Assembly: GCF_006345805.1 (NCBI RefSeq)
Contig: NW_021834158.1
Location: 1-51,224 of the forward strand
Direction: 5' to 3'
Length of the DNA: 51,224 bases
Origin: Octopus sinensis
Lineage: Eukaryota
Within the stretch, counting starts at the first letter, position 1. Each line of letters opens with the position of its first letter. The position numbers and the translations under genes were made by a program. A model generated the notes under the pieces. The model was not told the DNA's origin and made no database searches. It saw only the letters and a list, made by a program, of their open reading frames with translations. Positions 7,898 through 45,156 of this stretch are shown here, piece after piece.

Positions 7898-8163
7898 ATA
7901 CATACACCCAAATATGCGTACGTACATCCATCTATACGTATATATGCATATAGATAGATCGATAAATAGAGAGACATAGAGAGAGAGTCAGATAGATACA
8001 TAGATACAGACGTACACATACGTATACATACATACGAATATATACATACATGTGTATATACATATTGATAGAAATTGTAAGACAACAAAAGAATGAAAGA
8101 CACCTCGATATTATGTAAATAAGACGAATTTATCTGTAAATATAATATGTGACAATTATTCGG

Positions 8164-8237
8164 TAGCCATGATAAAACTCCGAGTTTCGGATGTCGGGGC
8201 GGAAACCCACGCCAGCATCTCTTCAGTTGTCGGGCTA
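8164..8237 (-). ncRNA. Type I hammerhead ribozyme motif (intact core)
   Basis: Reverse complement: tagcccgacaa CTGAAGA GATG...CATCC GAAAC TCGGA GTT ttatcatggcta; stems I and II and a near-palindromic stem III. Confidence 0.7.
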
Positions 8238-8510
8238 TCGAAAAAATGCTACGAAAATGACCGTTAAACAAAGGGAAATTACTGCGTAATTGACCGTTAT
8301 TAAGACAAAAGTGTTATTTGAATGACACTTAAGTAAGGGGTGGGAGTAAAGGCAAGGGAGTAAAAATATTACTATGAGCATTTTTACTCCCTTACCTTTA
8401 CTCCCTCCCCTTACTTAGGGGTCATCCTAATAACACTTCTGTCTTAATAACGGTCAATCACACAGTAATTTCCATTTGTTTAACAGTCATTTCCATAGCA
8501 TATTTTTCGA

Positions 8511-8584
8511 TGGCCCGATAAGTGAAGAGATGCCGGCGTGGGTTTCCGCACCGACACCCGAAACTCGGAGTTTTATCATGGCTA
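8511..8584 (+). ncRNA. Type I hammerhead motif, C3G core variant
   Basis: gataa GTGAAGA gatg...caccc GAAAC TCGGA GTT ttatc; perfect proximal stem I but mutated first core base. Confidence 0.55.
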
Positions 8585-8601
8585 CTGAATAATTGCCACA
8601 T

Positions 8602-9029
8602 GAGTGGCTGTGTGGTAAGTAGCTTGCTAGCCAACCACACGGTTCCGGGTTCAGTCCCACTGCGTGGCATCTTGGGCAAGTCTCTTCTGCTATAGCCCTG
8701 GGCCGACCAATGCCTTGTGAGTGGATTTGGTAGACGGAAACTGAAAGAAGCCTGTCGTATATATCTATATATATATATGTATGTGTGTTTGTTTGTGTGT
8801 CTGTGTTTGTCCCCCTAGCATTGCTTGACAACCGATGTTGGTGTGTTTATGTGCCCGTTACTTAGCGGTTCGGCAAAAGAGACCGATAGAATAAGTACTG
8901 GGCTTACAAAAAGAATAAGTCCCGGGGTCGAGTTGCTCAATTAAAGGCGGTGCTCCAGCATGGCCGCAATCAAATGACTGAAACAAGTAAAAGAGTAAAA
9001 GAGTAAAAGAGTAAAAGAGTAAAAGAGTA
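8602..9029 (+). mobile_element. SINE family A
   Basis: Head lacking a few 5' bases, internal microsatellite, (GAGTAAAA)n tail. Confidence 0.9.
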
Positions 9030-10252
9030 CATATATATATACATATATATGTACACGTATATATGTACATATATATACACGTATATGTGTACATATGTAT
9101 ATATGTATGTATGTATGTATGTATGTATGCATGTATCTATCTATCTATATGCATATATATGTATTGTTTGTGTATGATAGATAGAAAGATAGATAGATAG
9201 ATAGATAGATAGATAGATAGATAGATAGATAGATAGATAGATAGATAGATATGTATAAGGATGTTCTCAAAAGTAATACAAATCTGCCCCGCCTCTCCCT
9301 CGCTCCCTCACACGCATACACACATAAGCATACAAGCATACGTATTCATAGATTTATAGACATGTGTACTTCGACATACACATACACAGAAGAGACCTAC
9401 TCCTACTAAACAGATTTATACTCAAGTATCCATAGAAACAAACACACATGTACATACAAACGACTATTATACATTTTCGCATATAAGCAGTCACGTGCTT
9501 TTACAGTTTATATGTGCATAACTTGACATACACACACACACACATAAATACATACAAATAGTCATAGGTATACACATACATATAAACAGCCTCGCACAGT
9601 GGTTGTCACACGTGCGTTGATAGCTTTCCTTACCCAACCTCGTAAATACAGAAAAAAATAGTCACTCGTTAACAAAACTACATAGAGCGAAGCATATACA
9701 TATACACACACAACATCATACAAACGATATCTCTTCTATGAAATTAGGGGATAGAATCCCTCGATTGTTCCTTTTACAAGAACTCACCGAGAATTTCCTG
9801 TGGGAAACCCTTCTTCGACTGGGGCACACGTACAGACATATTCTTGAAGAGGTTTTTTCGGGGTGTTTTGAAAACACAAACAAAACACCGACCTAAAGAT
9901 TAATAACATCTAATAACTGGTCCCTTTTCTTTTCATGTCTGTTAAATTGGGTCTTCAGAGTTCGTTGAGAGAAAATTCATTGGAAACAGAAACAACGATG
10001 TTACACAAGTCATACAAATTGTTTTCAATATGAGGAACTATAAATCCTTCACTTCTCTGCCTCTCATTCTATCATGAAAATGCGTGCATGCGCACATACA
10101 TACATGTATATATGTATATATATATATATATATATATATATATATATACCAATTGAGGACTGAGCACGAAAAGTGGACAGTCAACATGTTAGATATAGAC
10201 GTCAAATCGTCATTTTCCACAAAGATCATGTTCTCAGATACCTCAATTGGTA

Positions 10253-10315
10253 TTGATTGATTCGATTGATTCTAGTTCCAGCTCACGAGCTGTGGCCATG
10301 CTGGGGCACCGCCAT
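10253..10315 (-). mobile_element. Extreme 3' stub of a CR1-like LINE
   Basis: Reverse complement ggcggtgccccagcatggccacagctcgtgagctggaac followed by an (AATC)n tail. Confidence 0.6.
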
Positions 10316-10442
10316 TTTATCGGTATATATAAATATTTTAATCTTCAGATTCTTTTTAATATGCTAGACCACTGGTTTTAATTGACTAATATCAATTTCT
10401 ACCCTTAATTATTTATATATATATATATATATATATATATAT

Positions 10443-10743
10443 ATAATTATTAAAATTATAAATTAGCGTATCTACGAGATACCACCATGCTGAAAATAGC
10501 AGCCATGATCTGACTCTAAAACCACCTTAATTGTCCATATATATCAACACGGAGAAAGAGACAAGATGAACTAGTAAAAAAATTACTAGAGTCCGATCAT
10601 GGCTGCTATTTCAGCATGGTGGTATCTCGTAGATACCCTAATTTATAATTTTAATAATTATTACCTTTGAAGTTATATTTTTTTCCATGCAGACCATTTG
10701 ATAAAATCGTTATTTTATTTTGAAATTAACGACCTTATCCTTA
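10443..10743. mobile_element. Fold-back element in (TA)n, copy 2
   Basis: Same arms and tail as 780-1045 with a different inner spacer; flanked by (TA)n. Confidence 0.8.
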
Positions 10744-42744: not shown

Positions 42745-43010
42745 TAGACTTCTTTCAGTTTCCGACTACCAAATCCTAATACAGACGGCTTTTGTTGGCC
42801 CGGGGCATTTGTAGAAGACACTCGACCAAGAGGTCACGCAGTGGAACTGAAACTGGAAACATGTGGTAAATGTATATGCATAAATATAAATATCCATACA
42901 ATACGACGGGCTTCTTCCAGTTTTCGGTTGACGAAATCTACTCACGAGGCTTTGGTCGGTTCGGAGTTATACAAAAAGATAGCAAATAGCTTGGCAGTGG
43001 AACTGAACAG
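42745..43010 (-). mobile_element. Two diverged SINE family A 5' fragments
   Basis: ttctttcagtttccg...ccaaatcc...tagaagacac...cacgcagtggaactgaa motifs occur twice. Confidence 0.6.
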
Positions 43011-43049
43011 GAAATTTGTTTAGGACAGACATGGCAGCGCTTGCGTATG

Positions 43050-43750
43050 AATGCATGTATGTGTATGTATGCATGTACGTATGTATGTATGTATGTATGT
43101 ATGCATGTATGTATGTGTGTATGTATGTATGTATGCATGTATGTATGTGTATGTATGTATGTATGTATGTATGTATGTCTGTATTTATGTATTATGTATG
43201 TATGTATGTAATGTGTGTATGTATGTATGTATGTATGTATGTATGTTATGTATGTGTGTATGTATGTATGTATGTATGTGTATTGTATGTATGTAGTATG
43301 TATGTATGTTGTATATGTATGTTGCATGTACGTATGTATGTATGTAGGTATGTATGTATGTATGTATGTGCGTATGTATGTATGTATGTATGTATGTATG
43401 TATGTATGTGTTGTATGTATGTATGTATGTATGTATGGTACGGTATGTATGTATGTATGTATGTATGTATGTTATGCATTATATATGTATGTATGTATGC
43501 ATGTACGTATGTATGTATGTAGGTATGTTAAGTATGTATGTATGTACGTATGTATGTACGTATGTCTGTTGTATGGTTGTATGTATGTATGTATGTATGT
43601 AATGTAGTATGTATGTAATGTATGTATGTATGTACTTAATGTATGTACGTAGTATGTTATGTATGTATGTATGTATGTATGTATGTATGGATGTATGTAT
43701 GTGTGGTGAATGTATGTATGTATGTATGTATAGGATATGTGTGTGTATGT
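43050..43750. repeat. Long (TATG)n microsatellite
   Basis: Direct inspection. Confidence 0.95.
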
Positions 43751-43936
43751 GGTTTATTTATTCATACATACATATATACATTATAGGGATTATATGAAAT
43801 AGAGTTAACACTCATATATACACATACACACAGAAAACTCCCACACATACACATAATCAGACATTGTGGAATATATATATGTACATATTTTATGTACATA
43901 TATATATATATATATATATATTTATATATATATATA

Positions 43937-44270
43937 GGCGCGTGGCTCAGTGGTTAGAGCGTCGAGCTTACGATCGTGAGGTTGTGAGCTCGAATCCCGG
44001 TCCGGCTGCGTGTTGTGTTCTTGAGCAAAGCACTTTATTTCACGTTGCTCCAGTTCACTCAGCTGTAGAAATGAGTTGCGACGTCACAGGTGCCAAGCTG
44101 TATCGACCTTTGTCTTTCCCTTGGATAACATCGGTGGCGTGGAGAGGGGAGGCCGGTATGCATGGGCGACTGCTGGTCTTCCATAAACAACCTTGCCCGG
44201 ACTTGTGTCTAGGAGGGTAACTTTCTAGGTGCAATCCCATGGTCATTGATGACCGAAGTGGGTCTTTACC
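43937..44270 (+). mobile_element. SINE family C
   Basis: A box gtggctcagtggttag, B box agctcgaatcc, CORE-like region; matches 19850-20180; inserted in (TA)n. Confidence 0.9.
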
Positions 44271-44514
44271 TTTATATATATATATATATATATATATATA
44301 TATATATATATATATATATGTATATATATATATGTATATATATATATGTATATATATATATATATATATATATATATATAAGTAATACTAAGAATATATA
44401 GCAACGAATTGCCTTACACATACCGAATTTAGAAATAGCATATTAGCTATTTCTTCTATATATATAATATATATTATACCAATCTATATATAATATATAT
44501 ATATACATATATAC

Positions 44515-44637
44515 CAAAATATCACAAAAAACTGCTACTCAGAGTTTCACGTTCCCGTTTGTCAGGCACTTGTAATCACAACTGCCCGACGAACGGGAAC
44601 GTGAAACTCGGAGTAGCAGATTTTTGTGATGTTTTTG
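44515..44637. mobile_element. Small fold-back element consisting of two opposed hammerhead motifs
   Basis: Arms 44521-44573 and 44578-44630 (5 mismatches in 53 bp), 4-nt loop; AATAAA shortly downstream of the right arm. Confidence 0.8.
44582..44619 (+). ncRNA. Type I hammerhead motif (U4C variant; opposite-strand copy has G8A)
   Basis: ctgc CCGACGA ACG-ggaa-CGT GAAAC TCGGA GTA gcag; consensus of the two arms gives canonical CTGACGA. Confidence 0.7.
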
Positions 44638-44899
44638 CAGCTTTAATAATAAAGTATACACACACACAGGCACTAATGTATACATATGTATGTGTGCGTG
44701 TGTGTGTGTGTATGTGTGTGTGTGTGTGTGTGTGTGCGTGTGCGTGTAATATTTTTGACAAATGGTTATCTGTCGATTATTGTGTTAAAGTGTTGAGTAA
44801 AGCACTTGCACGGTTTGGGCTATCTGGTGTTATCCGTAGTTGGGGGATATTTATGTTGGATTTACTTCAGTAATTCAGCAGTGTTATTTGAAATGATAA

Positions 44900-45156
44900 T
44901 AATTAATCAAAGATGGATTTGGTATTAGTCTTTATTCTGCACTACGATCGTTTCGACCCATCCTACTGCTGTCCCTTTCGGATGGGGCTCCGTGCATCAT
45001 GTTGTGCTACATCCATTTTGCAAATCCCAGTCTGCAAACTGGATGCAACACAACATGATGCACGGAGTCCCACTTATAAGGGACAGTAGCAGGATGGGTC
45101 GAAACGATCGTAGTGCAGAATAAAGATTAATACCAAAAACATCTTCCGTTTAATTA
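44900..45156. mobile_element. Fold-back element with a core-deleted hammerhead skeleton
   Basis: Core arms 44919-45022 and 45033-45136 (12 differences in 104 bp); each contains GAAACGATCGTA and AATAAA. Confidence 0.75.

What the first reader, a model, noticed from the sequence alone, without database searches (positions are those of the whole stretch)
8063..45156. Recurrent class of small non-coding fold-back elements carrying minimal hammerhead ribozymes
Seen: five loci in 51 kb show type-I hammerhead architecture (8.2/8.5, 26.8, 28.9, 44.6 and 45.0 kb). Four are palindromes or inverted-repeat elements, most lie next to microsatellites, all have a palindromic or near-palindromic stem III (ACGT, ACTCGGAGT, ACTCAAGT, ACGATCGT), and two have a downstream AATAAA. 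Known: Penelope-like elements carry such minimal hammerheads, which cleave as dimers, in their pLTRs and often leave inverted pLTR copies. Inference: these are several distinct non-autonomous, ribozyme-processed hairpin retroelements (retrozyme-like) mobilised in trans; no Penelope RT or GIY-YIG ORF is in this window.
Basis: partly seen in the sequence, partly recalled or inferred. Interest (0 to 1): 0.75.

Follow-up and report, generated by a model that had tools for sequence, protein, structure and literature searches.

The report
Penelope retroelement stumps with hammerheads
Four of the five ribozyme-like spots are decayed end-pieces of four common Penelope-type jumping genes and the fifth is a fragment of a protein-free 355-base repeat, their mirror-image shape likely arising during insertion, which is a layout already described in other animals.

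Summary
The hammerhead-like motifs are real, but only 3 of the 5 loci pass a relaxed descriptor (3 hits; 0.01 in shuffles). The 45.0 kb locus lacks the CUGAnGA half on both strands. The five loci belong to five unrelated high-copy families. Four (8.2, 26.8, 44.6, 45.0 kb) are 5'-truncated 3' ends of coding Penelope-like elements (PLEs): longer copies elsewhere run back into GIY-YIG sequence (26 of 30 loci for one family, 2–3 loci for each of the others). The palindromes are not fixed hairpin elements. Centres vary by hundreds of bases, 49 of 53 head-to-head pairs have exactly one 'tailed' arm, and ORF-bearing copies form the same palindromes. This is the published PLE inverted-pLTR-plus-tail footprint. 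Only the 28.9 kb family is non-autonomous: a closed 352–359-nt monomer in tandems with covarying hammerhead stems, i.e. a non-LTR retrozyme, likely moved by PLE enzymes. Cleavage and RNA circles are unshown. Two families carry a U4C core variant. This scan has noted the same pattern before on other DNA. New members of known kinds; low interest.

The parts
8046..8370 (-). Family A long arm: 3' end (pLTR plus about 85-nt tail) of a GIY-YIG PLE; hammerhead 8226 to 8176, core intact, stem I weakened
8368..8600 (+). Family A short inverted arm; hammerhead 8522-8572 with G at C3; ends at an inserted copy of the window's commonest interspersed repeat (8599-9013)
25775..26912 (+). Family B: single 5'-truncated PLE 3' end; the CA-rich stretch at about 25.9-26.6 kb is the element's own 3' UTR
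26769..26804 (+). Family B minimal hammerhead (4-bp stem I, extra A after A9, 4-bp stem II, 4-nt palindromic stem III); passes the relaxed descriptor
28843..28916 (-). Family C short inverted arm carrying about 16 nt of the tail (start of the next monomer)
28918..29140 (+). Family C: 220 of about 355 nt of a non-LTR retrozyme monomer; hammerhead 28923-28971 (6-bp stem I plus distal helix, C-A at 10.1/11.1, 4-nt insertion in loop 2 in this copy)
44516..44571 (-). Family D inverted arm, eroded; core has A at G8
44576..44658 (+). Family D PLE 3' end at the short 3' boundary; hammerhead 44582-44619 with the family's U4C core; AATAAA at 44648
44749..45022 (-). Family E long arm with about 150-nt tail; only the 3' half of the hammerhead
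45026..45165 (+). Family E short arm; GAAAC half at 45101, AATAAA at 45119; the CUGAnGA half is lost
779..1060 (.).
10447..10745 (.). Second family F head-to-head pair, arms starting 64 and 148 nt after C3; no ribozyme retained

Best explanation
Four loci (8.2, 26.8, 44.6, 45.0 kb) are short 3'-end stumps of four protein-coding Penelope-like element families and the fifth (28.9 kb) is a piece of a non-coding 355-nt tandem monomer; each was likely inserted by Penelope RT/GIY-YIG enzymes that likely cut both DNA strands and copy the RNA twice from two fixed internal start sites. Shown: family membership, links to GIY-YIG sequence, two discrete 3' ends per family, variable centres, one tailed arm per pair, closed monomer for family C. 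Inferred: the enzyme nicks AT-rich DNA on both strands; each strand primes cDNA, one at the short start and one at the long (tail) start; both cDNAs stop early and are joined 5' to 5', which gives a head-to-head palindrome with a variable centre. The hammerhead is inherited from the parent's terminal repeat and is likely a silent passenger in these copies. In family C it likely processes multimeric transcripts as a dimer in source arrays elsewhere.
For: GIY-YIG link. A: 26 of 30 best GIY-YIG loci have the A arm downstream in sense; the ORF has 1172 homologues and a weak GIY-YIG match. B: 3 of 30 loci are collinear from GIY-YIG to the arm at 71-72% identity (Pfam E 2.8e-4 and 2.2e-3). D: 3 of 30 loci have GIY-YIG-like sequence in sense 1.1-1.5 kb upstream (tblastn E 2e-9, 3e-5, 2e-12), 2 of them with the arm. 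E: ORF 3' part lies between two outward-facing E arms at L231 and L233, and L222 aligns along it. Geometry: head-to-head partners in D 17 of 30, E 12 of 25, A 9 of 25, C 15 of 30, B 0 of 29; centres span -511 to -22 (A), -146 to +205 (C), -490 to +265 (E), -199 to +38 (D) relative to C3. 49 of 53 pairs have exactly one long arm. ORF-bearing A palindromes have arms of 1145, 1518 and 1681 bp, up to 99.9% identical. Arms are more alike within than between loci in 32 of 42 pairs. Two window palindromes of a sixth family keep no ribozyme. C: period 352 and 359 nt tandems; the unit end runs into the unit start; 6 pairs change on both sides, 0 of 500 shuffles reach that. Literature: inverted 5'-truncated copy, tail and microsatellite bias (PMC8557442, PMC3846280); both-strand cleavage, two RT start sites, ribozyme dispensable for insertion in vitro (PMC11167929).
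Against: The ORF links for B, D and E rest on 2-3 old, broken loci each, and their Pfam scores are below the curated cut-off or absent. My first candidate ORF for B failed (0 of 30 and 0 of 20 loci). 24 of 30 D main arms start between -24 and -3, and 22 of 29 B copies between -104 and -70, which random truncation does not predict, although alignment drop-off may add to it. Tails of about 64 (D), 85 (A) and 150-190 nt (E) are longer than the 30-40 nt in the papers. A, C and E queries were palindromes, so their pair frequencies are inflated. Only 40 of 334-5075 candidates were scored per DNA search and 30 fetched. PMC3846280 reads head-to-head junctions as self-priming on an antisense template, which these data do not exclude. 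At one family C place (L376/L377) a PLE ORF fragment lies in sense 250 nt after the arm; I did not follow it up.
Confidence: 0.85

Rival explanations
1. One reading: each family is a fixed non-autonomous hairpin element whose RNA is released by its hammerheads and moved in trans as a palindrome.
For: High share of short palindromes in D (17 of 30 with a single-arm query) with centres mostly within about 25 nt of the ribozyme; no PLE ORF in the window.
Against: Centres vary and arms are asymmetric; four families link to GIY-YIG; B is never palindromic (0 of 29); in the predicted fold 50 of 52 (A), 35 of 38 (D) and 82 of 95 (E) ribozyme bases pair with the anti-arm; element ends lie outside the cleavage sites.
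Confidence: 0.04
2. Families B and D also include true non-autonomous short elements: pLTR-only transcripts from an internal start just upstream of the ribozyme, copied in trans by their own family's PLE protein, so that the window's stumps come from short templates and not from truncated full-length RNA.
For: Clustered 5' starts: D 24 of 30 at -24 to -3, B 22 of 29 at -104 to -70; a 286-nt B tandem.
Against: The window's B copy is 1.1 kb long and includes the 3' UTR; incidental B copies start over -167 to +15; the clusters may partly be alignment limits.
Confidence: 0.3
3. The palindromes form by self-priming fold-back on an antisense template during PLE replication rather than by two primed events.
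For: Proposed in PMC3846280 (passage); arms are more alike within than between loci in 32 of 42 pairs.
Against: One long and one short 3' end in 49 of 53 pairs and unequal 5' truncation of the two arms with gaps fit two starts better; PMC11167929 shows both strands cut and extended.
Confidence: 0.12
4. Chance motifs in palindromic DNA, or MITE-like DNA transposons.
For: A strict descriptor finds nothing exact; the single motifs do not fold better than shuffles (z +0.7 to -1.7).
Against: Relaxed descriptor 3 versus 0.01; the core is kept in five unrelated families with different stems; covariation in C; variable centres and asymmetric ends.
Confidence: 0.01

Closest known systems
Endonuclease-bearing Penelope-like elements with inverted pLTR and tail (PMC8557442, PMC3846280: passages; Poseidon_Ac, PMC11167929: parts 1-2 of 4)
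   Same: RT plus C-terminal GIY-YIG upstream of a hammerhead-bearing terminal repeat; heavy 5' truncation; inverted truncated copy at the 5' end; tail on one end; AT-rich or microsatellite sites.
   Different: Tails of about 64-190 nt in A, D and E; long microsatellite-like 3' UTRs; clade (Poseidon, Neptune, other) not tested by a tree.
[quoted passage not shown]
   Same: Type I, short stem I, extra base after A9 (B), palindromic stem III, mostly single motifs, some opposite-strand pairs 100-700 bp apart.
   Different: U4C in family D (C at position 4 in 19 of 20 scored copies) and in a young A subfamily (16 of 22 scored); an extra or mispaired base next to G12 in A and C; a stem II of about 77 nt in E.
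Animal non-LTR retrozymes (PMC7229834: passages; bioRxiv 10.64898/2026.07.22.740005: part 1 of 5 and passages)
   Same: Family C: non-coding 352-359-nt monomer, one type I hammerhead per unit, head-to-tail arrays, PLE proposed as helper.
   Different: Most copies seen are partial monomers with PLE-type inverted arm and 42-nt tail; cleavage and circles not shown; C-A in place of G10.1-C11.1.
U4C hammerhead variant of a viroid (PMC3088659: passage)
   Same: Same core change; reported there to lower activity in vitro yet allow infectivity.
   Different: Here it is the majority state in two retroelement lineages; activity untested.

Membership tests
EN+ Penelope-like element (families A, B, D, E) | GIY-YIG endonuclease coding sequence upstream of the terminal repeat, same strand | tested here: met
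   A 26 of 30; B 3 of 30, D 3 of 30; E at L231, L233, L222; Pfam support weak
EN+ Penelope-like element (families A, B, D, E) | RT in the same ORF as the endonuclease | tested here: inconclusive
   A: 543-617-aa open stretches ending in GIY-YIG, with RT-like motifs by eye and 1172 homologues, but no Pfam RT hit. Not recovered for B, D, E.
EN+ Penelope-like element (families A, B, D, E) | Inverted 5'-truncated copy at the 5' end | tested here: met
   A, D, E yes; B 0 of 29 within 1.5 kb
EN+ Penelope-like element (families A, B, D, E) | Tail on one end only | tested here: met
   35 of 38 A, D, E pairs; lengths exceed the published 30-40 nt
EN+ Penelope-like element (families A, B, D, E) | Minimal hammerhead in the terminal repeat | tested here: met
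   family alignments, descriptor
EN+ Penelope-like element (families A, B, D, E) | RT phylogeny within the PLE clade | not tested
   no tree built
Non-LTR retrozyme (family C) | Head-to-tail tandem monomers of about 300 bp, one type I hammerhead each | tested here: met
   352-nt and 359-nt periods; unit closes on itself
Non-LTR retrozyme (family C) | No coding capacity, no attached PLE ORF | tested here: met
   no direct continuation into a PLE ORF in 60 loci; one place has an ORF fragment 250 nt away
Non-LTR retrozyme (family C) | Conserved hammerhead structure | tested here: met
   18 copies, 93.4% of cells paired, 6 pairs change on both sides, 0 of 500 shuffles; related copies can inflate this
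Non-LTR retrozyme (family C) | Self-cleavage as monomer or dimer | not testable with these tools
   needs in vitro transcription
Non-LTR retrozyme (family C) | Circular and linear monomer RNA in tissue | tested here: inconclusive
   only contigs of runs guessed to be RNA
Fixed hairpin element or MITE | Fixed centre and symmetric fixed ends across copies | tested here: not met
Fixed hairpin element or MITE | Target-site duplication | tested here: inconclusive
   window flanks are microsatellites or an inserted repeat; none seen by eye

The most novel reading that the evidence does not exclude
Octopus-type Penelope lineages keep spreading with a hammerhead core that should be crippled (U4C fixed in family D and in the youngest A copies), so the ribozyme works only with the PLE protein or acts as a structural signal; alongside them the 355-nt family C is a circular-RNA retrozyme copied by the same enzymes from two fixed start sites and is itself the sequence-specific landing site of zinc-knuckle ORF1-type elements that insert at the ribozyme's stem I.
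Probability: 0.35. Interest if true: 0.5.

Novelty: new member of a known kind. Interest (0 to 1): 0.2.

Why it matters
As an answer to the finding it is ordinary: it explains a class of small palindromes as PLE insertion footprints and warns that single-window reading mistakes stumps for hairpin elements. Two things are of modest use. The one-tailed-arm rule (49 of 53 pairs) in five families is genomic support for the two-start-site priming seen in vitro for one lizard element, and it extends to a non-coding retrozyme, which supports PLE enzymes as the retrozyme helper. The U4C cores in apparently recent copies give natural test cases for protein-assisted hammerhead cleavage.

Tried and rejected
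Strict hammerhead descriptor: missed the real motifs because of bulged bases. Rfam scan: no hammerhead among the 150 rows shown of 352. Single-motif folding: not better than shuffles, as expected for motifs thought to work as dimers; one C monomer folds at z -2.3, 0 of 100 shuffles. A PLE RT 3.8 kb upstream of a B arm at L230 looked like B's ORF, but its family ends elsewhere: 0 of 30 and 0 of 20 loci carry B; rejected. RT fragments beside D at L081 and L088 are separated by microsatellite and start mid-ORF; treated as neighbours. The zinc-knuckle ORF upstream of some C copies looked like part of C, but it is an insertion with a duplicated target; rejected as C's ORF. The idea that copies begin at the cleavage site: 2 of 59 incidental copies start within 5 nt. 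Expression: no RNA holder on record was listed; contigs of four runs guessed to be RNA cover the C unit but cannot show strand, ends or circles; no verdict. Target-site duplications around the window's elements: flanks uninformative. Literature searches for octopus hammerheads or retrozymes (7 of 8 listed, 12 of 17 listed; PMC13282606 passages: 0 occurrences of 'ribozyme') and for Tx1 elements targeting PLE repeats (2 papers, listing only) showed no such report; the library lacks most subscription papers, and I read no supplements, where species lists of the retrozyme papers may include octopus.
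Full report
Setting. The window is one contig of a 2.72-Gb animal genome. A protein from a related locus has its only two homologues named from Octopus species, so the host is likely an octopus. The window is rich in microsatellites (112 tandem-repeat rows), so closeness to a microsatellite says little on its own.

Observation. Local inverted repeats are present at 8147-8601, 28859/29140, 44516-44635 and 44900-45156, and also at 777-956 and 10443-10661. A strict type-I hammerhead descriptor gives no exact hit and one hit with a core mismatch, no better than shuffles. 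After allowing a bulged base at either end of stem II and U4C (a relaxation made after seeing the families; the base after A9 is described in PMC4209133), three window motifs pass, at 26773, 28929 and 44586, against a mean of 0.01 in 200 shuffles. The two 8-kb copies and the minus-strand 44.6-kb copy carry damaging changes, and the 45.0-kb palindrome has no CUGAnGA on either strand. So 3 of 5 loci hold a formally complete motif.

Five families. Genome searches gave 787 (E, 45.0 kb), 3594 (A, 8.2 kb), 1926 (D, 44.6 kb), 3000 (C, 28.9 kb) and 5075 (B, 26.8 kb) candidates, of which 40 were scored and 30 fetched each time. The five are unrelated in sequence outside the core. Family alignments of 23-30 copies show a complete hammerhead in each, with different stems. 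Copies have sharp 3' ends running into (TA)n and ragged 5' ends. The window copies are 83-93% identical to their best relatives, so they are old.

Four are ends of coding PLEs. A: a GIY-YIG-like stretch lies upstream of one A arm. Searching with it gave 17,723 candidates; 26 of the 30 fetched have the A arm downstream in sense. The ORF has open stretches of 543-634 aa, a weak Pfam GIY-YIG match and 1172 homologues. B: 3 of 30 loci found with B's upstream sequence align continuously from a GIY-YIG region to the arm (Pfam E 2.8e-4 and 2.2e-3, below cut-off). The window's B copy begins near 25775, and its CA-rich stretch is the element's own UTR. D: 3 of 30 loci have GIY-YIG-like sequence 1.1-1.5 kb upstream in sense, two with the arm detected; Pfam gave no hit. 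E: at L231 and L233 an ORF 3' part lies between two outward-facing E arms, and L222 aligns along ORF and UTR. An earlier candidate ORF for B was tested and failed (0 of 30, 0 of 20). No PLE coding sequence is in the window itself.

The palindromes. After dropping 11 duplicate loci, head-to-head partners occur in D 17 of 30, E 12 of 25, A 9 of 25, C 15 of 30 and B 0 of 29; A, C and E are inflated by palindromic queries. Centres vary over hundreds of bases, and the two arms are truncated independently. Each of A, C, D and E has two 3' ends (about +90/+178, +209/+251, +73/+137, +150/+300-339 from C3), and 49 of 53 pairs have one long and one short arm; the dividing thresholds were set by me from the bimodal ends. 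The same geometry holds at kilobase scale in ORF-bearing A copies, with arms of 1145, 1518 and 1681 bp, the last 99.9% identical. Arms are more alike within a locus than between loci in 32 of 42 pairs. The two other window palindromes belong to a sixth hammerhead family but fold back downstream of the ribozyme and keep none of it. Folding whole palindromes pairs 50 of 52 (A), 35 of 38 (D) and 82 of 95 (E) ribozyme bases with the anti-arm; C is less sequestered (14 of 49). Only 2 of 59 incidentally fetched copies start within 5 nt of the cleavage site. All this matches the published PLE structure: inverted truncated copy, one-sided tail and microsatellite bias (PMC8557442 and PMC3846280, passages), and the in vitro result that a Poseidon protein cuts and extends both strands, starts at two internal sites that define the tail, and does not need ribozyme cleavage (PMC11167929). 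Opposite-strand min-HHR pairs 100-700 bp apart were already noted in PMC4209133.

Family C is different. It forms tandems with periods of 352 and 359 nt. In 60 loci the unit's end continues into its own start or stops, and never runs directly into a PLE ORF; one place has an ORF fragment 250 nt away. In 18 copies chosen from those loci, stem I and the stem III palindrome covary (6 pairs with changes on both sides, 0 of 500 shuffles; relatedness can inflate this). The family palindromes pair as dimers at -12 to -16 kcal/mol, the window's decayed word at -3. One monomer folds at z -2.3. This fits the non-LTR retrozyme definition (PMC7229834 passages; bioRxiv 10.64898/2026.07.22.740005), and its 42-nt one-sided tail points to PLE enzymes as helper (inference). 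RNA data were inconclusive.

Mechanism. Shown: structure, linkage, end distributions. Inferred: GIY-YIG nicking of AT-rich DNA on both strands, two primed cDNAs from the short and long start sites, early termination and 5'-to-5' joining. The window's ribozymes are likely silent. Against a pure truncation model, D and B have preferred 5' starts (24 of 30 at -24 to -3; 22 of 29 at -104 to -70), so short templates remain possible.

Oddities. Position 4 of the core is C in 19 of 20 scored D copies and in 16 of 22 scored A copies downstream of GIY-YIG, including the 99.9% palindrome. PMC3088659 (passage) reports U4C from a viroid, with lowered activity. Zinc-knuckle ORF elements insert into C with a duplication of about 15 bp ending in stem I; 13 of the 30 best hits to that ORF have C within 1.5 kb, two being the starting loci.

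Comparison and verdict. Members of known kinds: four PLE ends and one retrozyme fragment. Earlier notes of this scan reached the same reading on other DNA and had already noted the targeted insertions; they are unchecked notes, not support. Novelty: new members of known kinds. Interest 0.2.

Noticed in passing
window 12348-16103 (-): Uninterrupted 1251-aa stop-to-stop frame with an RT domain (Pfam RVT_1 E 7.5e-31), lying between (TTA)n tracts at 12022-12193 and 16743-16811; by recall this resembles a Dong/R4-clade non-LTR element that targets TAA repeats, and it may be a young copy. A further fragment of similar protein lies at 11695-12027.
   Followed up: partly
L211, L212, L214 (G000:C5 about 24.006 Mb; C10 about 45.11 Mb; C2 about 106.117 Mb); also L363, L364, L372: Divergent 1.6-1.9-kb elements with a zinc-knuckle ORF and no second ORF before their end insert at one site of family C, duplicating about 15 bp that ends in the 5' strand of hammerhead stem I; L214 holds two stacked insertions.
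   Followed up: partly
window 779-1060 and 10447-10745; L020:1100-1560: Two more head-to-head pairs, from a sixth hammerhead family, that retain no ribozyme.
   Followed up: yes
L243-L246, L151-L180: U4C hammerhead core is the majority state in family D and in the apparently youngest family A copies.
   Followed up: partly
L247-L296: A very abundant PLE (15,114 candidates) has a conserved microsatellite-like 3' UTR of about 1.3 kb and a 3' end about 2.2 kb after the ORF in which my descriptor found no hammerhead. Such UTRs may account for part of the genome's apparent microsatellite content.
   Followed up: no
loci L001-L356 (1.34 Mb): The relaxed descriptor finds 127 distinct motifs, including more than 20 further stem combinations outside families A-E, most with palindromic stem III.
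   Followed up: no
window 32376-33623 (-): Broken RT-like frames of another non-LTR element.
   Followed up: no
window 2841-3281, 5005-5485, 7320-7740, 8599-9013, 19060-19473, 21249-21592, 23158-23585: At least seven copies of a 400-nt interspersed repeat with an internal microsatellite; one ends family A's short arm. By recall it is an octopus SINE.
   Followed up: no
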